This document shows positions 1,627 to 11,145 of a DNA stretch of 11,145 bases, piece after piece. The DNA comes from a virus. Lineage: Duplodnaviria; Heunggongvirae; Uroviricota; Caudoviricetes. A program made the translations under genes and the position numbers. How positions within the stretch are numbered: position 1 is the first letter of the stretch; each line of letters starts with the position of its first letter. The DNA lies in the IMG/VR virus record IMGVR_UViG_2802429224_000014, one strand, 5' to 3'. A model generated the notes under the pieces. It was given only the letters and a program-made list of their open reading frames with translations. It had not been told where the DNA came from and did no database searches.

Positions 1627-1845
1627 GCCGTAATTGTGGCGGGTCCTTCCTGGAAAATGAAATACCGGGGGTAGCCATACGCGCAATTCTTAACTGTTTA
1701 TGAAAATTTTTCGGGAAAAGTCAGATCCGTTCTTCTTCTCTGTAACTCATTGTTTAATGGTAAAATCATCAAAAAAAGAAAGGATCTGACAGTGGTCATT
1801 TTGGGCCAAAAATGACGTTATCAGATCCTTTCTCAGTTTTGTTCA
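1627..1845 (+). other. cos-A: lambda-like cohesive-end site in plus orientation (cosQ-like 1638..1653, cosN-like about 1664..1686, cosB with R3-like 1721..1738, IHF-like AT-rich segment 1743..1770, inverted R2-like 1777..1792, R1-like 1821..1836)
   Basis: By eye the sequence follows the lambda cos junction as I remember it: GCGGGTCCTTCCTGG (lambda CGGGTCCTTTCCGG), a GC-rich cosN-like core ACCGGGGGTAGCCATACGCGC, TTTATGAAAATTTTTCGG (lambda TTTATGAAAATTTTCCGG), CCGTTCTTCTTC (present in lambda R3), then GAAAGGATCTGACAG and TCAGATCCTTTCTC (lambda GAAAGGAAACGACAGG and CTGTCGTTTCCTTTCTC). R-site consensus here is TCAGATCC(T/G)TTCT in a direct, inverted, direct arrangement. Confidence 0.7.
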
Positions 1846-1860
1846 ATAATTGCGCGGCTG

Positions 1861-2445
1861 TCACTCACCTTTCTGTTGCCGTAATTTCTCCGGCACGTTT
1901 CCGGTTGTTTCCATCAGGTAGTCCTTCAGAATGCGGGGCAGGTTATCGGCAGTTTTAGCGCACGCATTACAGACGCGTGCTGTTTCTTTCCTCAGGCCCT
2001 CGATCATTGCCGGAGTCATCGCGGGGAACTGCCTTTGCATTGTGAGCGGTAAACTATCCATGATCGAAGAAATCTGGCGCGCCAGACCACGAAGCGCATA
2101 GAGAACGAACTCAGTATCTGTAACTTCCCCCGTCTCTCTGGCGTTCTTCAGTTCCTGCCCGTCCGCCTGTGCTTTGGTAAGACGGTAGCGTTCGTACTCT
2201 GTTGTGCCTGGCTGTAAATCTGATTCACCAGCAGCACGTAAATCATCAAGCTCCCTGCGGAGTTTTTCGTTTTCGATGTCCTTCTCCCTCTGTGCATACC
2301 ATTCGATCACCTGTGCAGAGTCGAAAGTCACTTCCACACCTTTACCCCCACCAGATACATGGGGAAGCCCTTGCGTTTGCCATCGTTCAATCGTGCGCGG
2401 ATCGACGCCAAAAATCTTCGCAATATTATTTTTATTAACATTCAT
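1861..2445 (-). CDS. terminase small subunit, lambda Nu1-like
   Basis: 194-aa ORF with AAGGAA RBS 7 nt upstream of the ATG at 2445. The N-terminal half aligns by eye with lambda Nu1 (MNVNKNNIAKIFGVDPRTIERWQTQGLPHVSGGGKGVEVTFDSAQVIEWY...IENEKLRREL...DLQPGTTEYERYRLTKAQADGQELKNAR versus lambda MEVNKKQLADIFGASIRTIQNWQEQGMPVLRGGGKGNEVLYDSAAVIKWY...). Confidence 0.9.
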   Translation of the reverse strand: MNVNKNNIAKIFGVDPRTIERWQTQGLPHVSGGGKGVEVTFDSAQVIEWYAQREKDIENEKLRRELDDLRAAGESDLQPGTTEYERYRLTKAQADGQELKNARETGEVTDTEFVLYALRGLARQISSIMDSLPLTMQRQFPAMTPAMIEGLRKETARVCNACAKTADNLPRILKDYLMETTGNVPEKLRQQKGE

Positions 2446-2459
2446 CTATCAATTCCTTA

Positions 2460-2668
2460 TCAAAAACCAGTTCCGACATGAAACGCCAAAAAAACAGGAT
2501 TTTTGGGCTTTATGATGTCGTATGTTTCTGGTGGTTGATTTTAATAAAAACAAACAGTTATGCGCGAGAAGTACCGACATGCTTTTTCCTGAAAAATTTT
2601 CATAAACAGTTAAGAATTGCGCGTACACGTACCCCCGGTGTTTCAGATTCCGGAAAGGACCCGTGAAA
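2460..2668 (-). other. cos-B: second lambda-like cos site, in minus orientation, immediately upstream of the Nu1-like gene (cosQ-like 2651..2664, cosN-like about 2620..2642, R3-like 2565..2582, R2-like about 2513..2527, R1-like 2467..2482)
   Basis: The reverse complement reads CGGGTCCTTTCCGG (identical to the lambda cosQ-proximal motif), ACACCGGGGGTACGTGTACGCGC, TTTATGAAAATTTTTCAGG, then GCATGTCGGTACTTCTCG, CATAACTGTTTGTTTTTATTAAAATCAACC (lambda CATAACTTAATGTTTTTATTTAAAATACC), GAAACATACGACATCAT and TTCATGTCGGAACTGG. The cosQ/cosN part is about 85% identical to cos-A with a 35-bp perfect core at 2591..2625 matching 1677..1711 inverted; the R-site consensus differs (CATGTCGGxAC). Confidence 0.7.
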
Positions 2669-2696
2669 ATTGGGGTGATCACCACCGTTCCGGACA

Positions 2697-2729
2697 CAAA
2701 AAAATCGCGAGGCCTTGCCAACCTCGCGA
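2697..2729 (-). terminator. rho-independent terminator between the capsid operon and cos-B/TerS
   Basis: On the minus strand, TCGCGAGG-ttggcaagg-CCTCGCGA hairpin (8-bp stem) followed by TTTTTTTGTGT, 14 nt after the stop of the 141-aa ORF. Confidence 0.6.
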
Positions 2730-2742
2730 ACGTTCATTTCAG

Positions 2743-3168
2743 TTACTTAACAGACAGCAACAGCTTTTCATCTTCGGTCAGTCCGGCGTTACCATCACCG
2801 GCTGCTGGCCCAACACATTTCGGGCTGTGCTTTTCCATGTACGCATCAAACAAAAAAGCCGTTTTCTTTTCCTGCATCATTGCCTGGGCATCCACAGTAG
2901 CCAATAACGTTTGTGCATAGGTTACTGTCATTGCTTCAGAATCACACTCAATCAGCTTACTGGTGAACTCAGGGTATTTTGATGCCAGCGGTAAAGCCTT
3001 GATACCCTCTATGCGCTGTTTATCACTCTCAGCCTTTGCAGTAAGCACCGTTCGGGCTTCTGTCAGTGATGCGCCATTATTCGCGAGATTTTCCGCAAGC
3101 GTCTGGTATTTCTGCGCTTCAGGCAGTGCCATGATCAATGCTCTGGTTGAATTTGCTTTCTCAGTCAT
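2743..3168 (-). CDS. hypothetical head-associated protein, 141 aa (possible scaffold or packaging-accessory role; unassigned)
   Basis: ORF in the capsid operon directly downstream of the gpD-like gene, with a 14-bp gap. No confident similarity recognised; position relative to E/D parallels lambda FI but the sequence does not obviously match. Confidence 0.55.
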   Translation of the reverse strand: MTEKANSTRALIMALPEAQKYQTLAENLANNGASLTEARTVLTAKAESDKQRIEGIKALPLASKYPEFTSKLIECDSEAMTVTYAQTLLATVDAQAMMQEKKTAFLFDAYMEKHSPKCVGPAAGDGNAGLTEDEKLLLSVK

Positions 3169-3182
3169 AAATCACCACAAAA

Positions 3183-3512
3183 TTATTGCCCTAAAGGCTG
3201 TACGGAAATACCGGAACCAACAAAAGCCGACACTTTTTTCTCGAACGTGTCCGCTGTATCAGGCCAGTTAATTTCATCGATATTAAAAACCCCGCACTTA
3301 TAAACCTGTGCGCGGTTTTTTGTGGCCGTGTTAATGTCCGATATGGTCAGATACACCGCCTTACCGGGTGTACCGTCCCACTCAACCATCAGGCCTGCGC
3401 CGTTCTGCATCAGCGGAGTTCTCGCTTTAATTTCTCCGGCACTGGCAAAACAGGCCAGCGTGCTGACCAGTTCCTGCGTGCCGGAAAGTAATTGCGTGTA
3501 AGGTGTTGGCAT
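3183..3512 (-). CDS. head decoration protein, lambda gpD-like
   Basis: 109-aa ORF with AAGGGGA RBS. Shares the gpD pattern by eye: TPLM...WDGT...YKxGxF...WP...AFxGxxIS (lambda ...[21 protein letters not shown]...[36 protein letters not shown]). Confidence 0.85.
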   Translation of the reverse strand: MPTPYTQLLSGTQELVSTLACFASAGEIKARTPLMQNGAGLMVEWDGTPGKAVYLTISDINTATKNRAQVYKCGVFNIDEINWPDTADTFEKKVSAFVGSGISVQPLGQ

Positions 3513-3522
3513 ACGATCCCCT

Positions 3523-4578
3523 TTATTTCACTTCGACGGTAACAAAGCGACCAATATCCACGGGTACTGGCTGCGGGGCGCTGTGCGTCTGCACGTATTC
3601 AATCGCCGGATCGCCCGGTACGATATAATTTTTCGGGTAGTACATCCCCTCAGAAAATCCCTCGCGTGCCGCGTCCTGATCCATGATGGCACCATAAGCA
3701 ACAAGGCCTTTATTTTCGGTATTGCCGAAAACCATCATGTTTTGTTTCAGGAAATATTGCTGCTGCCCGTTTTCGTCGTCATAACGACCGGAATAAACCA
3801 CGAGCGCCACATCACCGAGATACCCCTTGAAGCTGACAACGCCGCCCAAATCTTTTAGCGCAAGTTCAAGTGACGAGTTTGAACCGCGACGCGTGTCCAG
3901 GAGTTCGCGGAATCGACGGAACGAGCGCAAAATACGCCAGGCTTCGCCACCCATGACGATAATATTTACCGTACCTTCGGAAAAATCAGCGTAAGCCTCA
4001 ATGTCGCTTATCGGATCAAACGTTTCGGCATCCTGTTTTGACCATTCTTTCCCGCCAGCCTGCGTAATATGATTGGTTGCGGGTAATCCCCAGTCAATTT
4101 CATAACGCTCAATGCCTTCGCCCTCAATAACGTTACGGCCTGTTGTGATGGCATTGACCGCCAGCCATTCAACACGCGCTTTGATGGCTGCAAGCTGTTT
4201 TTTCTGGCTGTCGTGAACCATTTTTACGCGGCGTAGTGCCGGGGAAGACTGACCATTGCCGATCTGTTCTCCAGCCATGCGCATGATTGTTTTAGTGGGA
4301 TCAATAACGTGTTTGGGCTTCATATAACCCGGCGTGAAAGTGTTCGTTGTAAAACCTTTGTCACGCATAACCTGACTGCCTGACATTGGTGAACAAAACG
4401 GACTCATGACCACGTTTTCAATGTCCAGCGTATCAAGCGCAATATCTCGCGTACTGAACGTGGCGATATTCGGAAAAAACAGCGTCGTAAAGAGCGGATT
4501 AAATTTAAATTCCGGCACATCTTCGCGCCCGATATTTTTCAGTAGCGTTGGTGTGCTTACCAGTTGCAGCGCTGTCAT
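3523..4578 (-). CDS. major capsid protein, lambda gpE-like
   Basis: 351-aa ORF, start overlapping the upstream stop (ATGA). Conserved gpE blocks recognisable by eye: FKFNPLF..LFF, FTPGYMKPKH, ITQAGGKEWSK, DIEAYA, VNIIV, LDTRRGSNSSLE..LKDLG..VSFKGYLGDVALVVYSGRY, YPKN, GDPA, SAP. Confidence 0.93.
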   Translation of the reverse strand: MTALQLVSTPTLLKNIGREDVPEFKFNPLFTTLFFPNIATFSTRDIALDTLDIENVVMSPFCSPMSGSQVMRDKGFTTNTFTPGYMKPKHVIDPTKTIMRMAGEQIGNGQSSPALRRVKMVHDSQKKQLAAIKARVEWLAVNAITTGRNVIEGEGIERYEIDWGLPATNHITQAGGKEWSKQDAETFDPISDIEAYADFSEGTVNIIVMGGEAWRILRSFRRFRELLDTRRGSNSSLELALKDLGGVVSFKGYLGDVALVVYSGRYDDENGQQQYFLKQNMMVFGNTENKGLVAYGAIMDQDAAREGFSEGMYYPKNYIVPGDPAIEYVQTHSAPQPVPVDIGRFVTVEVK

Positions 4579-4784
4579 TGCTCACCCCCATGAGGCTGAT
4601 TCATGCCAAGCGCAGCGCGTAAATGGCTGCGTACCATCCAGCCGACTGACGGCTTCACCAGGCACAACGGATCAAGGCCGACTTTTTTTCCTGCCTCTGC
4701 GTTCTCCTCAAAGCGCGCATTAAGTGCGGCGATAATATCGGGGCTGATGTACACGGATACACCGCCCGGCTTCTGTGTTCCCAT
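4575..4784 (-). CDS. hypothetical protein, 69 aa, first gene of the capsid operon
   Basis: The ATG at 4784 is preceded by AAGAGGAA at 8 nt; the longer track ORF from 4850 lacks an RBS. Translationally coupled to the capsid gene. No motif recognised. Confidence 0.5.
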   Translation of the reverse strand: MGTQKPGGVSVYISPDIIAALNARFEENAEAGKKVGLDPLCLVKPSVGWMVRSHLRAALGMNQPHGGEQ

Positions 4785-4833
4785 AAATGAGATTCCTCTT
4801 TGACTAAAAAACAAACATAACGAAAAGTCAGTC

Positions 4834-4866
4834 ATGATTTTAATCATCATTGCATTTTTTGCAATG
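4834..4866 (-). promoter_or_regulatory. candidate sigma70 promoter for the capsid operon, overlapped by two palindromes
   Basis: Minus strand: -35 TTGCAA (4864..4859), 16-bp spacer, -10 TAAAAT (4842..4837), about 45 nt upstream of the 69-aa ORF. Overlapping inverted repeats CATTGCA-ttttt-TGCAATG (4848..4866) and ATGATT-tt-AATCAT (4834..4847). Confidence 0.4.
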
Positions 4867-4947
4867 CAATTGACTGTTGTTGCAAATCATGAAATTATCA
4901 CGCCGTGGTTTTATCACCCCAAACCGCATTAATGGTCATTGCATGAA

Positions 4948-4981
4948 ATCCCCCGGAACCTCATCCCGGGGGATTTTTTTT
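4948..4981 (+). terminator. rho-independent terminator on the plus strand
   Basis: ATCCCCCGG-aacctcatc-CCGGGGGAT hairpin (9-bp stem) followed by T8. No plus-strand gene lies upstream; see findings for a candidate short plus-strand transcript. Confidence 0.55.
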
Positions 4982-4984
4982 GCG

Positions 4985-5012
4985 CACAAAAAAACCGGGA
5001 AAAATCCCGGCT
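4985..5012 (-). terminator. rho-independent terminator after the SSB-like gene
   Basis: On the minus strand, CCGGGA-tttt-TCCCGG hairpin followed by TTTTTTTGTG, about 16 nt after the SSB-like stop codon. Confidence 0.6.
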
Positions 5013-5027
5013 TCTGTCACTCGTTGC

Positions 5028-5450
5028 TTAAAACGGTATGTTATCCCCGTACGGATCATCATTTCCCGCCTGTTGTTTTGCCCTGTTCAGTGCGTCAGTA
5101 GCCTGGCCCTGCTGGCCTTTTTTGCCGCCCGGTCGCGCCGTTCGCGCACTGATTACACTGTCTGCGATAACCTGCCAGCCCTGCCGCGTTTCGCCGTTCT
5201 GGCCTGTCCACTGGCTTACCTGCATGTTACCCGCCACGCTCACCAGTTCGCCTTTGTGGTGCCTGGCCAGTGCGTCGGCCTGTCTGCCAAACGCCAGGAC
5301 GGATAACCACATCGTCGCCGTTCCGTCATCGGCCTGGCTGCACGGCAGGGGAACCGCCATACTCGCCATCGCCATTTGTGTCCCTTTGCTGGTGGTCTTT
5401 AACTGCGGGTCAGCCACCAGCCGCCCGTAAGCCGCTATCTGTGCTGTCAT
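5028..5450 (-). CDS. single-stranded DNA-binding protein, short SSB-like
   Basis: 140-aa ORF with GGAGAG RBS, ending in DDPYGDNIPF, which resembles the acidic SSB C-terminal tip (E. coli SSB ends DDDIPF). The preceding Gly/Gln-rich linker and N-terminal region are consistent with an OB fold. Confidence 0.75.
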   Translation of the reverse strand: MTAQIAAYGRLVADPQLKTTSKGTQMAMASMAVPLPCSQADDGTATMWLSVLAFGRQADALARHHKGELVSVAGNMQVSQWTGQNGETRQGWQVIADSVISARTARPGGKKGQQGQATDALNRAKQQAGNDDPYGDNIPF

Positions 5451-5698
5451 GCTGTCTGCTCTCCGGTTTTAACGTTGATGGTTGTCACCTGTTCCGCTTC
5501 GGCAATCTCCCGTTCTGTCAGCGTGGCAAAGTTTGCCGCCGCCGTGGTCATGAATGCGCTTATCAGTTCGGGATGTGCTTTCGCGTATCCTTCTCCGGCA
5601 TGGCGGTCTATTGTTCTGATTGCCACCTTTAAGGCGTGCTCTGTCATGTCTAATGCGCGATATTTTGGCGCTGTCTTATCTCTGGTTTTTCTGGTCAT
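5447..5698 (-). CDS. hypothetical protein, 83 aa
   Basis: ORF whose stop overlaps the SSB-like start; RBS spacing at the first ATG is poor (GAGGA 1 nt before ATG), so the start is uncertain. No motif recognised. Confidence 0.45.
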   Translation of the reverse strand: MTRKTRDKTAPKYRALDMTEHALKVAIRTIDRHAGEGYAKAHPELISAFMTTAAANFATLTEREIAEAEQVTTINVKTGEQTA

Positions 5699-5699
5699 T

Positions 5700-5898
5700 C
5701 CTCACTACCACTCACTTTTATTACTCACTTTTTAAACCTACTCACTTCGCCTCACTTGAGATTAATTGTTTTCGTATCTGTATGTTTCATAAATATTTTT
5801 TCACCGCTCACTTTTTTGGGTGTATACAGGTGAGAAAGTGAGTAATTGTGTTAATTATTTGTAAAATTCTCACTATCACTCACTTTTACTCCTCACTT
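5700..5898. repeat. iteron array (at least 10 copies of CTCACT(TTT), some inverted) around an AT-rich core; putative replication origin
   Basis: Read directly: ctcactaccactcacttttattactcactttttaaacctactcacttcgcctcacttgag ... AT-rich 5761..5800 ... gctcactttttt ... gtgagaaagtgagtaa (inverted) ... ctcactatcactcacttttactcctcactttt. Lies immediately downstream of the primase/ATPase gene. Confidence 0.6.
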
Positions 5899-5899
5899 T

Positions 5900-7306
5900 T
5901 TACAGTGGTCCTACATCATCGCCGTCGATGTGAATCACGCCGTCTTTTTCCAACTTGGATAGCCAGCGCCGCATATTTTTCACATCGTACCCAAGCCTTT
6001 TCATGTCATCGCGCAACAACGGGATAGTGCATTTATCGCCTCGCTGTATGCGTGAACGGATACAGCCCCAAAGCGCTGTATGATTCTCCGTCTTGTTCCC
6101 GGCCTCCTCGATGCGTTCCAGTTCAGCAGGGGCGCGGGGAACGTCAATCACCACCATGGACACAATCTCTTCGCCATCTGTATCGGTAAACACCTCCACG
6201 CTTTTAAGGTCGTATGCGCTTTCTTTTGGCTCCTCTGCGTCCTTCATCTTCGTACACGCCGCCACCAGTGCTGTAACGTCTGAATTTTCCCGGCTGATTC
6301 GGTACTCTGCATCCAGTGCAGCACGGAATGCGCTGGAACCACGCGCCCCCTTTGTTTCATCCTTGCCGGAATGGTGAACCACCAGCACCGTGGCCCCTGT
6401 GGCCTGCTTTATCGCGTCACACCCCTGGATAAATGCGCCCATATCACGGGAATCATTTTCATCATTCCCACCAAAGCAACGGGCCAGCGTGTCTATCACA
6501 ATCAGCCGCACATTTTCGCCCGTTCTGCTCTTAACAAGTCCGGCAGTCCTGATAACCTGCTCCACATAGTCAGGCGATGCAGGGAAGACAGGCGCGTTAA
6601 CGATGCACAAATCCGTAACCACCTTGTCGTGGGTTATCTCCCACGCCTTAACGCGGCGTTTTACGCCCATGCTGCCTTCACCAGCGATATAGATAACCGC
6701 GCCCTTACTGACCCTGCGACCTCCCCATGCCATACCTGTGGCAACATGGCACGACCAGGAAATGGCGAGGAACGATTTATAAGAACCGCTGGCCCCGTAG
6801 GTGCTGCATAATGATTCAGCCGGAATAAGCCCCTTAATTACGTAGCTTTGCTGCGCGTCGAATCCCTCAGAACCCCATGAGATGGGAAGTGTGATTTTTC
6901 GCTTTCCACCATTCATGACCAGGCTTTCCCCACGTTCCCAGGTTTCTTTAAGGCGCGGTAGTTGCTCGCTCCAGTCCTCCAGTAGTTCGAAATTCTCTGA
7001 AAGTAACCGCGCTTCCCGGACACCTGCGATCGCCAGTTTGGTGGCAATGGTCAGCATCTGCATATCGTCCAGGTTTCCGGCGCGTATGACCTTTGCTCTG
7101 TATCGTCCTTCATCAACAATCTGTAAATTGTCCAGTTCGCTTAACTGATAACGGCCCAGGTAAACCGGAGGGATGGGATCGCCTGCTTTTTTGGCCTGTG
7201 CAATCATGTAATGTTCTGCAAAGGAGTGAGCATTATCACCCGCAAAAATAACCGCCTCAGTGTGTTTATCTTTCGGTAACAGTTTTACGTTTGGTGCCAG
7301 TTTCAT
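5900..7306 (-). CDS. replication protein: primase-like N-terminal region fused to a RecA-like (AAA_25/RepA-type) ATPase
   Basis: 468-aa ORF with AGAGGT RBS. Walker A-like GASGSYKS and Walker B-like RLIVIDTLARCF are visible, followed by VLVVHHSGKD. The domain order is typical of satellite/PICI primase-replicase proteins; assignment is by motif, not search. Confidence 0.85.
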   Translation of the reverse strand: MKLAPNVKLLPKDKHTEAVIFAGDNAHSFAEHYMIAQAKKAGDPIPPVYLGRYQLSELDNLQIVDEGRYRAKVIRAGNLDDMQMLTIATKLAIAGVREARLLSENFELLEDWSEQLPRLKETWERGESLVMNGGKRKITLPISWGSEGFDAQQSYVIKGLIPAESLCSTYGASGSYKSFLAISWSCHVATGMAWGGRRVSKGAVIYIAGEGSMGVKRRVKAWEITHDKVVTDLCIVNAPVFPASPDYVEQVIRTAGLVKSRTGENVRLIVIDTLARCFGGNDENDSRDMGAFIQGCDAIKQATGATVLVVHHSGKDETKGARGSSAFRAALDAEYRISRENSDVTALVAACTKMKDAEEPKESAYDLKSVEVFTDTDGEEIVSMVVIDVPRAPAELERIEEAGNKTENHTALWGCIRSRIQRGDKCTIPLLRDDMKRLGYDVKNMRRWLSKLEKDGVIHIDGDDVGPL

Positions 7307-7602
7307 TTTTTACCTCTGGATGCGCTGAGCATGCTTTTTATTTTCTTAATATTTTCCCGTGCTTTTTCCCTGCTGGTGGGCTTACCGCGTGTTGCGTTCT
7401 GTACCAGAGAAAAATCACGCCGGAACTGATAAACAGGCATCACGCAGTCATAGCCGTACCCATCACGGCGGTAAGTAACACACCGTCCCGCCACGCTTTT
7501 AATCGTTACAGTGCCGCCGTATTTATCTTTGAAAATATCGCCGGGGCAGATTTCAGGCCGAGGGAGGCCGCTGGCAGTAAAGCCAGAATTTTTCTGTTTC
7601 AT
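7303..7602 (-). CDS. hypothetical protein, 99 aa
   Basis: ORF with GGAGAA RBS; its stop overlaps the primase start (ATGA), suggesting translational coupling. Function unknown. Confidence 0.55.
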   Translation of the reverse strand: MKQKNSGFTASGLPRPEICPGDIFKDKYGGTVTIKSVAGRCVTYRRDGYGYDCVMPVYQFRRDFSLVQNATRGKPTSREKARENIKKIKSMLSASRGKK

Positions 7603-7607
7603 GGTTT

Positions 7608-7835
7608 TTATTCTCCGGTGTGATGCGTTTTATTATTCTCGTGAATTGCCATCACCGTATTTAATTCGTTAATTACTGGCGTTAATAATGTGTGCACGGC
7701 AGAAAACATCATGGGATATGATTCATCGCCATTTTCCGGCACTTCCATTAACTTAAGTAATAATGCCTCCATTTCCTTTGCGCGGATTAATGCATTCTCA
7801 GAATGAATAAGAACATCAAAGGGTATTTTATGCAT
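7608..7835 (-). CDS. hypothetical protein, 75 aa
   Basis: ORF with strong RBS AGGAGGTGA 4 nt upstream of the ATG; overlaps the upstream gene by 8 bp. Function unknown. Confidence 0.55.
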   Translation of the reverse strand: MHKIPFDVLIHSENALIRAKEMEALLLKLMEVPENGDESYPMMFSAVHTLLTPVINELNTVMAIHENNKTHHTGE

Positions 7836-8025
7836 GACTCACCTCCTGACGAATACGGGCGACGAATACAGCGACACAACCGGACGGGCAACGGTTACGC
7901 GCTTCGCGTTCTGTCCATGCGGTGACGTGGATGATTTGAGATTCTCCGGCACTCAGTGCCAGAAAACGCCACACAAAGGCCGTTTGTGTGTGCGCTAGGC
8001 GTGGGGTATGCTGTCTTACAGCCAT
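7828..8025 (-). CDS. hypothetical protein, 65 aa, first gene of the leftward replication operon (alternative start at 8040)
   Basis: GAGAGGT RBS 7 nt upstream of the ATG at 8025; the ATG at 8040 has no RBS. Function unknown. Confidence 0.45.
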   Translation of the reverse strand: MAVRQHTPRLAHTQTAFVWRFLALSAGESQIIHVTAWTEREARNRCPSGCVAVFVARIRQEVSHA

Positions 8026-8110
8026 AAAACTACCTCTCATAACGGTTTGTGGTTATAAGCCCTGCCAGTGGTAACGACACTTGCGGGGCTTTGCTTTTTG
8101 CGCCGATTGT

Positions 8111-8129
8111 GTGTAATGTGTCATTACAC
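8111..8129. promoter_or_regulatory. operator-like perfect inverted repeat GTGTAATG-tgt-CATTACAC in the divergent promoter region, with a third CATTACA half-site at 8137..8143
   Basis: Read directly; lies between the leftward operon (start 8025) and the plus-strand Arc-like gene (start 8159). Confidence 0.5.
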
Positions 8130-8158
8130 ATAAATACATTACATGAGGTGTAATTAAC

Positions 8159-8338
8159 GTGTCAACACACAAAAACGAAAGGCGTGGTAATCCTCCGTTC
8201 CAGTTCCGTTTAGATCCTGACTTACGGGAAAAGATGGAAAAAGCACAACAACAGGACGGCGATGATTCTCTTGCTGCCTGGATAAAGCGAATAATCCGCA
8301 AAGAATTACAACAGCGCGGTATCGAGCCAAAAGGCTGA
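8159..8338 (+). CDS. Arc/MetJ-type ribbon-helix-helix DNA-binding protein, 59 aa, GTG start
   Basis: Absent from the ORF track (GTG start, under 60 aa). GAGGTG RBS 8 nt upstream. Translation VSTHKNERRGNPPFQFRLDPDLREKMEKAQQQDGDDSLAAWIKRIIRKELQQRGIEPKG has the basic N-terminus, beta-strand, two-helix layout of Arc-family repressors. It is the only convincing plus-strand gene in the island. Confidence 0.65.
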   Translation: MSTHKNERRGNPPFQFRLDPDLREKMEKAQQQDGDDSLAAWIKRIIRKELQQRGIEPKG

Positions 8339-8427
8339 TAATCCACCAGCAAGCCAGCACACTGATCACATTGCCCACCAGCCAGCAAATCGCTATGATG
8401 TTCGGGCTTATGTTTAGTGTTTTCATT

Positions 8428-8455
8428 GGCGACCGCCCCCGGTCGCCTTTGTTTT
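8428..8455 (+). terminator. rho-independent terminator downstream of the Arc-like gene
   Basis: GGCGACCG-cccc-CGGTCGCC hairpin (8-bp perfect stem) followed by TTTGTTTT on the plus strand; no T-tract on the minus strand. Confidence 0.6.
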
Positions 8456-8475
8456 ATGTGTCATATACTCCCCCC

Positions 8476-8760
8476 TTATGCAGCTTTCTTACCGTACGGA
8501 TTATTGACTTTATCTACAGCAGGTGGGTTACGAACCCACCAAAGCACATCAGAGAGAAGCCACGCACAGCTATTGCGCCCGAAATGACAACGAAGCGGGA
8601 AACGCCCTTCATTTTCCATTTTGAAGCGAGTTGAGCGCGACAGACTGGTGATTTCCTGGCATTCCTTTTCACGGATACGGCGATCAAATTCAAAACCGTA
8701 TTCTTCAAGAAGCGCCCGGCGTTGTTCTGGAGTTGGGGGAATGAATGTAGTTTTTGTCAT
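8476..8760 (-). CDS. alpA: AlpA-family transcriptional regulator / excisionase-like HTH protein
   Basis: Start taken at the ATG at 8760 (GGAGG RBS 4 nt upstream), giving 94 aa. Contains the AlpA signature EITSLSRSTRFKMENEGRFPLRCHFGRNSCAWLLSDVLWWV (compare the family pattern LSRSTIYR...GxFP...W...V..W). Confidence 0.8.
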   Translation of the reverse strand: MTKTTFIPPTPEQRRALLEEYGFEFDRRIREKECQEITSLSRSTRFKMENEGRFPLRCHFGRNSCAWLLSDVLWWVRNPPAVDKVNNPYGKKAA

Positions 8761-8842
8761 ATTGCCTCCACTGTATCTATGCTTGCGGAGGCTATTTTGC
8801 AATCTTTAATACTGGATTAAAATACAGTAGTAATCATAGAAA

Positions 8843-8875
8843 CATACTGATAATGCTTATAAATATATCAGTATG
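8843..8875. promoter_or_regulatory. perfect 10-bp inverted repeat CATACTGATA-N13-TATCAGTATG upstream of alpA
   Basis: Read directly in the AT-rich region between the 309-aa gene and alpA; candidate operator in the alpA promoter. Confidence 0.45.
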
Positions 8876-8897
8876 CTTAGGAGTATATGAGTAAGGC

Positions 8898-9827
8898 TTA
8901 CTGCGACCTTTCACTCGGCCTCTTATGAGCATTACTTAAAATTGCTGCTATTTTTGTTTCTGTTTTTATTGGCAATTCACTATTAATGAACCAATCAGGT
9001 CTGGCGATCAACTCACGAGCCCAAGCAGAATAGTTAATCGTTCCATCGTTTTTTCTGCAGGTCTCATTAAAAGTATTTTGTTGCTCTTCTTTAAAACGCA
9101 TAGCAACCATTAAAATTTGCTCTCGATTTCTTGCATGTCTTTCAGCAGAATGGTGCACAATTTCATTGCCATTCATCTTGTGAGGTTCTACAGATTCAAA
9201 ATTATCTGTTAGCGTAAAATAATCGCCACCACAGTCAAGAAGTCGCCTTATATCATGAGCGGTAATCCACAAGTCATTTATAGAAATATTATTCTTTAAT
9301 ATTTGATCGTCTTCTTCATCATAATCACTATCTTCACCAACCATTAAAAGTTGTACGGCAGGATTATCAGTTTCTGGATGACACGGGGTTAATTCAAAAC
9401 CACTTAGGGAATACTCTCCAAAATTTTGTAGCTCTTCCAGCCCACTCCAAAGGCGCCACAATCCATAAGCCCTACCAATAGAGCTAAAGCATCCGTTTTC
9501 TGAGTCTTGACCGAATAAAGGCGCGTGTATAGTTTCATCTGTCTCCTCGTTATAATTGTATCTGAAAAGATGAAATCTGGAGTATTCAGTAATATTGTTC
9601 CCCATCAGTGATGTGGTCGATTTTGCATTTCTGGTATCAAACCAAGCAGTTGCAGACTTGCTATCAGTATTCATATATAAAACAGCGCGAGCATCAAATA
9701 AATTTAGGCATAAAGCTATTTTTTTAGTAACACCTAAATTCACGAGATCGCTAATCTCGCAACCCAGCAATCTTGATGCACGTTCAATGTTGCAATACTG
9801 AAAAGGAATTTTAATGTCGTTAGCCAT
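8898..9827 (-). CDS. hypothetical protein, 309 aa, AT-rich orphan gene between int and alpA
   Basis: Long ORF with GAGGG RBS 5 nt upstream of the ATG. Visibly AT-richer than the rest of the island. No catalytic motif recognised; the N-terminal 40 aa could form an HTH, followed by an acidic stretch DSDYDEEDD. Confidence 0.7.
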   Translation of the reverse strand: MANDIKIPFQYCNIERASRLLGCEISDLVNLGVTKKIALCLNLFDARAVLYMNTDSKSATAWFDTRNAKSTTSLMGNNITEYSRFHLFRYNYNEETDETIHAPLFGQDSENGCFSSIGRAYGLWRLWSGLEELQNFGEYSLSGFELTPCHPETDNPAVQLLMVGEDSDYDEEDDQILKNNISINDLWITAHDIRRLLDCGGDYFTLTDNFESVEPHKMNGNEIVHHSAERHARNREQILMVAMRFKEEQQNTFNETCRKNDGTINYSAWARELIARPDWFINSELPIKTETKIAAILSNAHKRPSERSQ

Positions 9828-9918
9828 TGCGCTACCCTCAACGCCCTAAATACTTTACGAGCCAGGCGGGTAGGGTTTCCCGCTTTTCGGTTGGCCGACC
9901 TATGCCCGTAATATCAGT

Positions 9919-11145
9919 TTAACCTCTATTCGATACAGGTAACAGCACCACATTTTGATGATTACCCGCCAGAAGTTCTAATCGGCCATACCACTTATTC
10001 AACGCATCCATTTTCTCAGGTAAGTACAGACTACGGTTATAAATAGCCATCACCCCCGGCAATGCATGACCAAGTAAAAGCTCTACAATATGTGGCGCAA
10101 TACCCATATTATTTAAACCTGTAGAAAATGTTCTGCGCAAATCGTGAAGCGTCCATGGCTCATTATGATGAAAATCTTTGTATAGCCTACGCCCTTTAAG
10201 CGAAGCAGCCTGGCGGGAACGTTCTTCACCCAGTACAATTCCTGTTTTTCCCGTTTCCTTTTTTAGATCCTCAATCCATGGGCGAATGCCCTCTGGAATT
10301 GGACGAACTATTTTTTCACGAGTTTTGCTGTGTTCTTTAGGAACCGTCCAAATCCATGACTGAAAATCCCATTCACTCCACCGGGATAATCTTACTTCCA
10401 TTGTTCGCGCCCCAAACAGCACAAGCAACTTAAGCAGACGAAGATAATAAAGTTGCTGTTCATCGCTATAAGTACACCGCCATACATCAGCTAACTCACT
10501 ATCTGACAGCACCCTATCACGCTGCCCCGATGGTTGCCCTACATCCTGGATTGTCATAAAAGCCAGGGCATCACATGAGGCATAACGGCGAACCTTGCAG
10601 AATCTTAAGGCCTGTTTACAAATCTGGAACATTCGCCCGGCAGTGATTGGCCTGGACTGGTTAATTTCATCAAAACATGCCACCCAGTGACGCGTTTCAC
10701 ACCGGGATAACGGATAGTGGCCAAGACGCGGATAAATATGCTTACGTAATTGCGCCCGCACCAGTTCCTCGTCACTACGTTTTTTTCTTGCGTAATGAAT
10801 TAGCCAATATTCAAGGGCATCATGGACAGTTACGGGGTTAAGGTTTTCTTCTGCGCTAAGTTCTAATTCAAGTCGTGGATTCAGCCCTTCCGCATACCAT
10901 TTTCGGCATAGTTCCCTCTTCTCCCTAGCCATTTTCAACGACATGTCAGGGTAACGCCCAAGAACAATGCGCTCTAACTTGCTCCCACGCCCACCAAGAC
11001 GATAAGAGAAAACCCAACTAATGCATCCCATCATGGATACTTTGATGCTTAATCCTTCACCATCCGCAATGGTAATTACTGAATCCCGCTTTACGCCGAG
11101 AAGCGATCTTAATTTTTTATCACTCAGTTTGTTTGTGCCAGCCAC
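9919..11145 (-). CDS. int: tyrosine recombinase/integrase, P4-family; N-terminus at or just beyond the window edge
   Basis: 408 codons from a GTG at the window edge to TAA at 9921..9919. N-terminal region resembles the P4-type integrase arm-binding domain (KLSDKKLRSLLG...ADGEGLSIKVS). C-terminal catalytic residues are visible: HDLRRTF, LLGHA and a tyrosine in AIYNRS. Confidence 0.92.
   Translation of the reverse strand: MAGTNKLSDKKLRSLLGVKRDSVITIADGEGLSIKVSMMGCISWVFSYRLGGRGSKLERIVLGRYPDMSLKMAREKRELCRKWYAEGLNPRLELELSAEENLNPVTVHDALEYWLIHYARKKRSDEELVRAQLRKHIYPRLGHYPLSRCETRHWVACFDEINQSRPITAGRMFQICKQALRFCKVRRYASCDALAFMTIQDVGQPSGQRDRVLSDSELADVWRCTYSDEQQLYYLRLLKLLVLFGARTMEVRLSRWSEWDFQSWIWTVPKEHSKTREKIVRPIPEGIRPWIEDLKKETGKTGIVLGEERSRQAASLKGRRLYKDFHHNEPWTLHDLRRTFSTGLNNMGIAPHIVELLLGHALPGVMAIYNRSLYLPEKMDALNKWYGRLELLAGNHQNVVLLPVSNRG

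What the first reader, a model, noticed from the sequence alone, without database searches (positions are those of the whole stretch)
8898..9827. AT-rich 309-aa orphan gene in the int-proximal slot: candidate cargo (defence or helper-sensing regulator)
The gene sits between int and alpA, a position that in P4-like satellites and some islands is a hotspot for variable cargo including anti-phage systems. Its base composition is clearly AT-richer than the neighbouring genes, suggesting separate acquisition. The protein has no motif I can recognise: a possible N-terminal HTH (IERASRLLGCEISDLVNLGVTKK), an acidic segment and a long C-terminal domain. A perfect palindrome lies just downstream of it in the alpA promoter, so it could alternatively be the island's master repressor.
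Basis: inference. Interest (0 to 1): 0.62.

Follow-up and report, generated by a model that had tools for sequence, protein, structure and literature searches.

The report
Swappable satellite gene behind int-alpA RNA
The AT-rich 309-codon gene between the integrase and alpA of this E. coli phage satellite is real and under selection, but it is not an orphan: it belongs to a large, uncharacterised, fast-evolving protein family that always sits in this one exchangeable slot, directly behind a known structured RNA, and its function (probably binding a phage protein) has still to be shown.

Summary
The ORF (8898-9827, minus strand, 309 aa), its low GC and the downstream palindrome are all present. 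"Orphan" is wrong: it matches phrog_7144 full length, and an exhaustive profile search finds 334 family clusters. In every context sampled (about 12 independent ones) the order is int -> X -> alpA, co-directional.

X diverges much faster than int or alpA and is exchanged independently of them. Its middle domain is hypervariable. In sister elements the slot holds other subfamilies, an unrelated DUF6387 protein, a broken copy, or IS + BREX. X is 8-15 GC points below its neighbours in all loci, so AT-richness is a family trait, not recent acquisition. dN/dS is 0.07.

The int-X spacer is the Rfam int-alpA RNA (RF02996), ending 16 nt before the start codon. The palindrome is a post-stop hairpin found, with a different sequence, in most of the ten loci compared.

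No Pfam, NCBIfam, PADLOC or PDB sequence match and no significant fold match. The protein is acidic (pI 5.0) and its HTH is not supported by sequence.

Best reading (about 0.4): a non-enzymatic cargo protein in an exchangeable cassette that binds a phage protein. The master-repressor reading is weak. Function is unproven.

The parts
8898..9827 (-). Gene X: 309-aa protein of an uncharacterised family (phrog_7144). Predicted layout: N-terminal strand-helix-helix-hairpin domain (res 1-58), acidic beta-rich hypervariable middle (59-198, including a disordered D/E loop at 163-178), flexible linker, conserved mildly basic four-helix C-terminal domain (225-309).
   Evidence: ORF. phrog_7144 E 4e-36. 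No Pfam, NCBIfam or PADLOC hit. AF2 pLDDT 81.6. dN/dS 0.074. Domain conservation C 70% > N 50% > Mid 39%. pI 5.0, middle domain net charge -19.
9844..9910 (-). int-alpA RNA motif (Rfam RF02996), filling the int-X spacer and ending 16 nt before the X start codon. Probable 5' leader of the slot gene.
   Evidence: cmscan 55.2 bits against a gathering score of 35.8, E 1.8e-9. The same motif lies directly upstream of the slot ORF in L009, L013, L015, L017, L020, L022 and L024. Compensatory stem changes (GCGGG/CCCGC to GCAAG/CTTGC) are visible.
9835..9839 (-). Shine-Dalgarno GAGGG of X, 7 nt before the ATG.
   Evidence: Read directly from the sequence.
8840..8878 (-). Hairpin 20 nt after the X stop codon (13-bp stem, 13-nt loop). 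It is best read as the 3'-end or terminator-like hairpin of the cassette.
   Evidence: Inverted repeat I1. It forms in the RNA minimum-free-energy fold; the spacer fold has z = -3.5. Most of the other nine loci have a hairpin or inverted repeat of different sequence within a few tens of nt after the stop codon (read by eye).
8761..8897 (-). X-alpA spacer, which is exchanged together with X. Homology to sister elements stops at the X start and resumes only 10-15 nt before the alpA ATG.
   Evidence: blastn breakpoints between the window and L020, L022, L028, L041, L031 and L037.
8764..8792 (-). Stem-loop that sequesters the alpA Shine-Dalgarno (GCCUCCGC...GUGGAGGC).
   Evidence: RNA fold. Equivalent hairpins with covarying sequences (CUCUCUGU/ACAGAGAG, UACUUCC/GGAGUA) lie upstream of alpA in the other loci.
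8812..8827 (-). CTGT-N8-CCAG, a LexA-box-like element in the spacer. Weak lead only.
   Evidence: Pattern hit (3 hits in the window against 0.8 expected, so not significant alone). The same position reads CTGTATTTTCATACAG in L014 and CTG-N10-CAG in L002 and L009.
8476..8760 (-). alpA (94 aa by the RefSeq start), the master activator and excisionase-type regulator of Gram-negative PICIs. It forms the right border of the slot.
   Evidence: PF05930 E 3.8e-11. RefSeq annotation. Role from PMC11773190.
9919..11145 (-). P4-type tyrosine integrase (408 aa). It forms the left border of the slot.
   Evidence: Arm-DNA-bind_3, Phage_int_M and Phage_integrase. Annotation.

Best explanation
Gene X is the protein-coding part of an exchangeable cargo cassette. 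The cassette consists of the int-alpA RNA leader, one ORF of about 255-315 codons, a post-stop hairpin and the spacer up to alpA. It sits between the integrase and alpA of AlpA-type phage satellites (PICI and cf-PICI) and related islands.

Shown:
- X is a real gene under purifying selection.
- It belongs to a large family with no recognisable enzymatic, membrane or known defence domain.
- It has a conserved N-terminal and a conserved C-terminal domain around a hypervariable, strongly acidic middle domain.
- It is swapped independently of int and alpA, and can be replaced by an unrelated protein or lost.

Inferred: X acts stoichiometrically, by protein-protein binding. The variable acidic middle domain would recognise a fast-evolving phage protein of a helper or a competitor. 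The conserved terminal domains would couple that binding to an outcome that benefits the satellite or its host, most likely interference with phage reproduction, as with Tai, Ppi or Rpp. It is not the island's DNA-binding master repressor. The transcript probably reads in from int through the RNA leader, because only 16 nt separate the RNA from the start codon.
For: Gene is real: dN/dS 0.074 against the L002 copy, and similar in all four domains.

Family: phrog_7144; 334 clusters; lengths about 260-340 aa; N-terminal domain in 141 of 145 full-length representatives, C-terminal in 93, middle in 57.

Fixed position: int -> X -> alpA in E. coli (two different satellites at two att sites), Xenorhabdus, Morganella, Photorhabdus, a Klebsiella record and four metagenomic lineages, including members only 25% identical.

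Independent exchange, as Int/X/AlpA identity to the window: 58/91/80 (L002), 80/42/63 (Xenorhabdus), 57/29/78 (L022), 84/N-terminus only/80 (L020). Homology breakpoints fall at the X start and just before the alpA ATG.

Alternative occupants behind the same RNA: DUF6387 in 13 of 24 RNA-anchored viral loci and X superfamily in 11 of 24; the two are unrelated (hhalign 0.4%); a broken copy in L023; IS3 remnant + BREX in L089. Of the 25 E. coli genomes with this RNA spacer, X-309 is found in 12 E. coli genomes, an L022-type X in 3, DUF6387 in 3, and two other types in one each.

Mosaic evolution: the C-terminal domain is 73-75% identical where the middle domain is 8-10%.

AT-rich in all loci.

Literature: PICIs carry immune systems at the int end, and Tai is a single non-enzymatic PICI protein that blocks phage by binding a tail protein (PMC11364771).
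Against: No experiment and no homology supports any activity.

No PADLOC model matches X or any alternative occupant.

Unlike typical defence genes, the whole superfamily was seen only directly upstream of alpA, never in other hotspots or fused to known effector domains. That pattern argues for a function tied to AlpA rather than free-standing immunity.

dN/dS gives no sign of positive selection at the one close pair available.

The conserved, mildly basic C-terminal domain could bind nucleic acid.

The DefenseFinder 'FS_*' models derived from PICIs could not be tested.
Confidence: 0.4

Rival explanations
1. X is a helper-sensing regulator of alpA, functionally like Stl. Its conserved terminal domains would hold alpA off, at the spacer DNA, at the SD-sequestering leader RNA, or by binding AlpA itself. 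Binding of a helper-phage protein to the variable middle domain would release this block and switch the satellite on.
For: Strict adjacency to alpA in every context, including elements whose Int is only 26% identical.

The whole X-alpA spacer travels with X, as in an immunity module of regulator plus target.

The layout of variable middle and conserved ends resembles Stl.

Predicted strand-helix-helix-hairpin N-terminus, with weak fold hits to HTH_17/excisionase proteins.

The C-terminal domain is basic in 85% of the members scored.

A structured alpA leader exists that could be a target.

The trigger for alpA induction by helpers is described only as helper-dependent (PMC11773190).
Against: X is absent from int-alpA modules of other PICI-like E. 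coli islands (L021, L025), broken in L023, and replaced by the unrelated DUF6387 next to 77%-identical alpA genes with the same leader.

The N-terminal domain is on average net negative, with an invariant Asp in the would-be recognition helix.

HTH_17 is not supported by sequence.

The palindrome is better explained as a post-stop hairpin present in most loci compared.

X is co-directional with alpA, not divergent. It is much more AT-rich than the genes it would regulate.
Confidence: 0.2
2. X is an establishment or counter-defence factor. It would be co-expressed with int when the satellite enters a new cell. As an acidic protein, it would neutralise a host or prophage defence (for example as a DNA mimic or decoy) or exclude competing elements.
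For: X lies 3' of int with no room for its own promoter after the RNA. In L003 the int-X gap is 12 nt, and in L014 the genes overlap by 4 nt, which suggests an int-X operon.

Strongly acidic middle domain with a disordered D/E loop.

Rapid diversification of the middle domain.
Against: No similarity to Ocr, ArdA or any other known anti-defence fold.

The model shows no elongated DNA-mimic architecture.

Co-transcription with int is not shown.

This reading does not explain the strict linkage to alpA.
Confidence: 0.1
3. X is a decaying or spurious ORF in AT-rich spacer DNA and has no function.
For: Low GC. No recognisable domain.
Against: dN/dS 0.074. Conserved 309-aa frame at 89% nucleotide identity. 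334 family clusters. Confident AF2 model. Good Shine-Dalgarno.
Confidence: 0.02

Closest known systems
Accessory or immune genes in the 5' (int-proximal) region of Gram-negative PICIs (Fillol-Salom et al. 2022, as cited in PMC11364771), and single-protein PICI interference factors such as Tai
   Same: Same position at the int end of a PICI-type satellite. Variable between related elements. AT-rich. A single gene without enzymatic domains. Not recognised by defence-prediction models.
   Different: No anti-phage activity has been shown for X. No sequence relation to Tai could be assessed. X is confined to the slot directly upstream of alpA and is preceded by a conserved RNA motif, whereas Tai sits next to pri and also occurs in prophages and P4-like elements.
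Stl master repressors of staphylococcal pathogenicity islands (SaPIs)
   Same: Encoded next to int. Highly divergent between related islands, with a more conserved N-terminal domain. A variable part could recognise a helper-phage protein.
   Different: No sequence or fold relation. X is co-directional with the regulator gene rather than divergent. It is dispensable in related elements. It is acidic with an unsupported HTH. No operator is conserved with it.
DUF6387 (PF19924) proteins
   Same: They occupy exactly the same slot (int-alpA RNA -> ORF -> alpA) in sister satellites. Similar length (268-301 aa). Uncharacterised. Also adjacent to alpA in ICEKp258.2 (PMC10763509).
   Different: Unrelated in sequence (hhalign probability 0.4%).
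int-alpA RNA motif (Rfam RF02996; filed as an sRNA)
   Same: The motif is present at 9844-9910, between int and alpA as its name implies.
   Different: Here and in all related loci it abuts the start of a protein-coding gene. In other viral contigs it follows structural or terminase genes rather than int, and precedes HNH endonucleases, a helicase and unknown ORFs. It therefore behaves like a 5' leader of accessory ORFs, not like a free-standing sRNA tied to int and alpA.
HTH_17 / AlpA / Xis (MerR-like winged helix) domains
   Same: Predicted strand-helix-helix-beta-hairpin topology of residues 11-52. A similar hydrophobic pattern (ERAAxLLGC..DLL..G..I).
   Different: No Pfam match. Profile-profile probability of 0.7% against AlpA. 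Acidic residues where the DNA-contacting residues would be.

Membership tests
phrog_7144 (uncharacterised phage/satellite protein family) | Full-length match to the family HMM | tested here: met
   E 4.4e-36, residues 3-301 against profile positions 4-311 of 313.
PICI int-proximal (5') accessory cargo | Located between int and alpA of a PICI-type element | tested here: met
   int 9919-11145, X 8898-9827, alpA 8476-8760. Island gene set.
PICI int-proximal (5') accessory cargo | Content of the slot differs between otherwise related elements and is dispensable | tested here: met
   Other X subfamilies, DUF6387, a broken copy, IS + BREX, or no gene.
PICI int-proximal (5') accessory cargo | Confers protection against phages | not testable with these tools
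   Needs a phage challenge of a strain expressing X.
Known anti-phage defence systems (PADLOC-DB v2) | Match to a defence protein model | tested here: not met
   0 families at E<=10 for X, and none for four alternative slot proteins and the L022-type X. The DefenseFinder FS_* models from PICIs were not available.
HTH_17 / AlpA / excisionase winged-helix DNA-binding domain (N-terminus of X) | Sequence match to the family profile | tested here: not met
   No Pfam hit for X. 1 of 140 family members hits HTH_17, at E 0.005. hhalign of the X N-terminal profile against an AlpA profile gives 0.7% probability.
HTH_17 / AlpA / excisionase winged-helix DNA-binding domain (N-terminus of X) | Strand-helix-helix-beta-hairpin fold | tested here: inconclusive
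   AF2 elements E11-13, H14-21, H25-33, E39-52 at pLDDT >90. Foldseek hits to HTH/excisionase proteins have only probability 0.2-0.6 and E>0.7.
Master repressor of a satellite (Stl/CI-like) | Present in all related elements as an essential regulator | tested here: not met
   Absent, broken or replaced by an unrelated protein in related int-alpA modules.
Master repressor of a satellite (Stl/CI-like) | Operator palindrome in the regulated promoter bound by the protein | tested here: inconclusive
   A palindrome exists. It lies 20 nt after the stop codon, and most other loci have a different hairpin near the same position. Binding cannot be tested here.
Rfam RF02996 int-alpA RNA (element upstream of X) | Covariance-model score above the gathering threshold | tested here: met
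   55.2 bits against 35.8.
P4-like satellite | sid / psu / delta capsid-hijacking genes | tested here: not met
   The RefSeq annotation of the identical island lists none. The island has a lambda-type capsid E, a decoration protein and a Nu1 TerS instead.

The most novel reading that the evidence does not exclude
The int-alpA RNA, the X-family protein and the SD-sequestering alpA leader together form the helper-sensing switch of this class of Gram-negative satellites. X would read a helper-phage protein through its hypervariable middle domain and release alpA expression. That would supply the so far unidentified trigger of PICI induction and give the orphan int-alpA RNA a function.
Probability: 0.12. 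Interest if true: 0.8.

Novelty: new variant of a known kind. Interest (0 to 1): 0.5.

Why it matters
If X is a phage-binding interference or defence protein, it adds a widespread family of at least 334 sequence clusters, with a fold not matched in the PDB, to satellite-borne immunity.

The work also defines a compact cassette (RNA leader, ORF, hairpin) whose borders are precise enough to mine for further cargo.

Independently of X's function, the Rfam int-alpA motif always abuts the start of a variable ORF. In phage contigs these ORFs include HNH endonucleases. This turns an RNA of unknown role into a testable 5' leader of accessory genes.

If instead X regulates alpA, it would bear on how Gram-negative PICIs sense their helpers.

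Tried and rejected
Sequence families. Pfam, NCBIfam, PADLOC and PHROGs on X: only phrog_7144, of unknown function. Pfam on 140 diverse family members and on 26 C-terminal domains: nothing meaningful.

Solved structures by sequence. PDB profile searches with the full family, the N-terminal domain and the C-terminal domain gave only chance-level hits.

Profile-profile comparisons. X N-terminus against AlpA, and X against DUF6387: both negative.

Domain-only homologue searches with the C- and N-terminal alignments returned almost nothing, because of the word index.

Literature. No paper mentions this family. EcCIMP1_002, a gene between int and alpA, is an unrelated small protein. The Cell 2022 PICI-immunity paper and the Weinberg 2017 supplement were not held. 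A search for the FS_* defence names was useless. A possible identity with the DefenseFinder 'FS_HP' system is only a recollection and could not be tested.

Rejected readings:
- Recent foreign acquisition as the cause of AT-richness.
- The palindrome as an X operator.
- A P4-like identity for the island.
- A spurious ORF.
- The LexA-like box as a solid finding: 4 mismatches to the 20-mer consensus, and the pattern is not significant alone.

Full report
**The observation.** The window is an E. coli island inserted between hpt (1-537) and gcd. It matches strain HNSQ2209 best: 100% over 8400-11145 and 97.8% over 1800-8800. All island genes are on the minus strand:
- int, 9919-11145
- the gene in question, called X here, 8898-9827, 309 aa
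- alpA, 8476-8760
- an Icd-like gene
- a DUF4222 gene
- a RepA-type helicase (AAA_25)
- SSB
- a lambda-type major capsid protein E
- a decoration protein
- a Nu1-type small terminase

This gene set is PICI-like, not P4-like. X has a good Shine-Dalgarno (GAGGG, 7 nt upstream of the ATG). GC is 0.376 for X, 0.453 for int and 0.474 for alpA. GC3 is 0.30 for X, 0.40 for int and alpA, and 0.52-0.67 for the rest of the island. The palindrome exists: arms at 8840-8852 and 8866-8878, with the inner 10 nt perfect.

**Not an orphan.**
- X matches phrog_7144 (unknown function) over its full length, E 4e-36.
- It has 21 close clusters in Enterobacter, Photorhabdus, Arsenophonus, Morganella and others.
- An exhaustive profile search of 1.8 billion representatives finds 334 clusters at E<=1e-3, nearly all 260-340 aa.
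- Only 12 of 5426 complete E. coli genomes carry X: 9 at hpt/gcd, and 3 in a capsid-forming PICI at yhdJ.
- dN/dS between the two E. coli versions is 0.074, and similar in all four domains, so it is a working gene.

**Anatomy of the protein.** AlphaFold2 with the family alignment gives mean pLDDT 81.6. The predicted parts are:
- residues 11-52: strand-helix-helix-beta-hairpin
- residues 59-198: beta-rich, including a disordered D/E loop at 163-178
- residues 199-224: a low-confidence linker
- residues 227-299: a four-helix domain

Within the X clade the C-terminal domain is the most conserved (mean 70% identity). The N-terminal domain follows (50%), and the middle is hypervariable (39%). Two members keep 73-75% identity in the C-terminal domain with only 8-10% in the middle, so the protein is a mosaic. 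Across 145 full-length representatives, the N-terminal domain is detectable in 141, the C-terminal in 93 and the middle in 57. X is acidic (pI 5.0). The middle domain has net charge -19 (family mean -8.8), the N-terminal domain averages -1.6, and the C-terminal domain +2.7.

Nothing identifies the fold or a function:
- no Pfam domain in any of 140 members
- no PADLOC or NCBIfam hit
- no PDB relative by sequence profile

Sequence does not support it: HTH_17 hits 1 of 140 members at E 0.005, and hhalign against AlpA gives 0.7% probability.

**Context: a fixed slot with exchangeable content.** Every context I could retrieve has int -> X -> alpA, co-directional:
- two different E. coli satellites
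- five complete Xenorhabdus loci, plus a sixth with only the C-terminal third of X upstream of alpA
- Morganella and Photorhabdus
- a Klebsiella record deposited as a phage
- metagenomic elements, including members only 25% identical to X whose Int is 26% identical

X does not co-evolve with its neighbours. Identity to the window's Int/X/AlpA is:
- 58/91/80 in the E. coli cf-PICI
- 80/42/63 in Xenorhabdus
- 57/38/63 in Morganella
- 57/29/78 in the Klebsiella record
- 84/N-terminal domain only/80 in an E. coli island at the same gcd site

Nucleotide homology between sister elements stops at the X start codon (or up to about 40 nt inside X). It resumes only 10-15 nt before the alpA ATG. The exchanged unit is therefore the ORF plus the whole ORF-alpA spacer. 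X is 8-15 GC points below int and alpA in all ten loci examined, whatever the host GC. The AT-richness is thus a lasting property of the slot's content and not a mark of recent acquisition in this island.

**The upstream RNA.** The 91-nt int-X spacer is conserved even between elements with 26% identical Int, and shows compensatory stem changes. It is the Rfam family RF02996, the int-alpA RNA: window 9844-9910, minus strand, 55.2 bits against a gathering score of 35.8. The motif ends 16 nt before the X start codon. It occupies the same place in seven other loci tested, and is absent from two int-alpA modules that lack a slot gene.

I anchored a search on the RNA rather than on X. Of 24 satellite-sized viral contigs with the exact core, 22 have an ORF of 255-315 aa that starts 33-39 nt after the core and is followed by alpA; the other two are truncated. 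Eleven of the ORFs are X-superfamily and thirteen are DUF6387 (PF19924). DUF6387 is unrelated to X. DUF6387 is also adjacent to alpA in ICEKp258.2 (PMC10763509).

In E. coli complete genomes this RNA spacer occurs in 25 of 5426. The occupant genes were counted in separate searches: X-309 in 12 genomes, another X type in 3 (one broken into two ORFs), DUF6387 in 3, and two further N-terminal-domain relatives in one each. In one further strain, the related int plus RNA at the gcd site is followed, right after the RNA, by an IS3 remnant and a BrxR/BREX defence system.

A degenerate core pattern found 37 more viral contigs. All 12 that I tested score above the Rfam threshold. In the ten upstream ORFs I read, the products look like phage structural, terminase or helicase proteins rather than int (by eye; not scanned). 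An ORF starts 11-93 nt downstream (mostly 36-52 nt) in 29 of the 37. These ORFs include three HNH endonucleases, an SF2 helicase and unknowns. The motif therefore behaves as a generic leader of accessory, moron-like ORFs.

**The downstream spacer.** As RNA, the X-alpA spacer folds better than shuffled controls (z = -3.5). Most of the other nine loci have a hairpin or inverted repeat of unrelated sequence within a few tens of nt after the slot gene's stop codon, several followed by a U-run; L028 shows no clear one (read by eye). Every locus also has an SD-sequestering stem with covarying sequence upstream of alpA. The palindrome is therefore most simply the 3'-end hairpin of the cassette, not an operator for X. 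A CTGT-N8-CCAG element lies in the spacer. It reads as a perfect CTGT-N8-ACAG in one relative. This is a weak lead for SOS control.

**Interpretation.** Shown: X is a real, conserved, non-enzymatic, acidic protein with a hypervariable middle. It sits in a precisely bounded, exchangeable cassette behind an RNA leader, and sister elements can replace or lose it. This fits cargo of the int-proximal accessory region of PICIs, which the literature describes as carrying immune systems (PMC11364771). It resembles single-protein, binding-type interference factors such as Tai.

I therefore favour, at about 0.4, a protein that binds a fast-evolving phage protein through its middle domain and so interferes with phage reproduction.

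The main rival, at about 0.2, is an Stl-like sensor that controls alpA. It is the only model that explains why the whole superfamily, and also DUF6387, is found only directly upstream of alpA, and why the spacer travels with the gene. It is weakened by the dispensability of X, the acidic N-terminal domain, the unsupported HTH, and the hairpin explanation of the palindrome.

An establishment or counter-defence role co-expressed with int gets about 0.1. It is suggested by the 12-nt int-X gap in L003 and the 4-nt overlap in L014. A spurious ORF is excluded.

**Novelty and score.** The family is uncharacterised and its fold is unmatched in the PDB. The kind of thing, a variable cargo gene at the int end of a satellite, is known. 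The new elements are:
- the strict coupling to alpA
- the precise cassette borders
- the RNA leader

I rate it a new variant of a known kind, with interest 0.5. The incidental result on the int-alpA RNA may be as useful as the gene itself.

Noticed in passing
window 9844-9910 (-); loci L026-L088: The Rfam int-alpA RNA (RF02996, filed as an sRNA) always abuts the start of an ORF. In 22 of the 24 satellite loci found with the exact RNA core, the ORF starts 33-39 nt after the core; among 37 further viral contigs found with a degenerate core, 29 have one starting 11-93 nt after it (mostly 36-52). In the viral contigs it follows structural, terminase or helicase genes rather than int, and precedes HNH endonucleases, a helicase and unknown ORFs. 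It looks like a 5' leader of accessory genes.
   Followed up: partly
window 8764-8792 (-): A stem-loop sequesters the alpA Shine-Dalgarno (GCCUCCGC...GUGGAGGC). Equivalent stems with covarying sequences precede alpA in all compared loci, which suggests translational control of the satellite's master activator.
   Followed up: partly
window 8812-8827 (-): CTGTATTTTAATCCAG, a LexA-box-like element between TTACTA and TATTAA hexamers upstream of alpA. One relative (L014) has the perfect CTGT-N8-ACAG. The pattern is not significant on its own and has 4 mismatches to the 20-mer consensus.
   Followed up: partly
window 8853-8892 (+) and L014: Two tandem 20-nt units (ATGCTTATAAATATATCAGT / ATGCTTAGGAGTATATGAGT) overlap the hairpin. 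A related motif, GCATACT(G/C)ATA, recurs in the spacer of L014, whose X is only 35% identical. It could be a binding site for AlpA or Int rather than for X.
   Followed up: no
L089 (E. coli Ec1120, gcd site): A related integrase plus int-alpA RNA is followed, exactly where X would start, by an IS3 transposase remnant and then a WYL (BrxR) gene and a BREX system. This is a defence island in the same slot.
   Followed up: partly
L023 (E. coli PCP06171): The slot gene is a copy, 98-99% identical, of the Klebsiella-type X that is split into two ORFs of 158 and 112 aa, i.e. a pseudogene. This shows the gene is dispensable for keeping the element.
   Followed up: yes
window 1861-4578 (-): The island encodes a lambda-type major capsid protein E, a head decoration protein and a Nu1-type small terminase, but no portal, protease or large terminase. 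[quoted passage not shown] Parts of this module occur in about 2000 E. coli genomes.
   Followed up: no
window 8159-8338 (+) and 8428-8447 (+): A small plus-strand ORF (59 aa, Arc-like repressor by PHROGs, E 2e-6) runs against all other island genes. A strong G+C hairpin with a T-run follows about 90 nt downstream on the plus strand. It is a candidate for the island's actual small repressor.
   Followed up: no
PQ569648.1 (L022); plasmid records NZ_CP069874.1 and NZ_CP070523.1: A 106-kb record deposited as 'Klebsiella phage P12620-1' contains a satellite-type int-X-alpA module. 'Plasmids' of 16.0 kb and 24.7 kb that carry X homologues are probably circular satellite forms.
   Followed up: no
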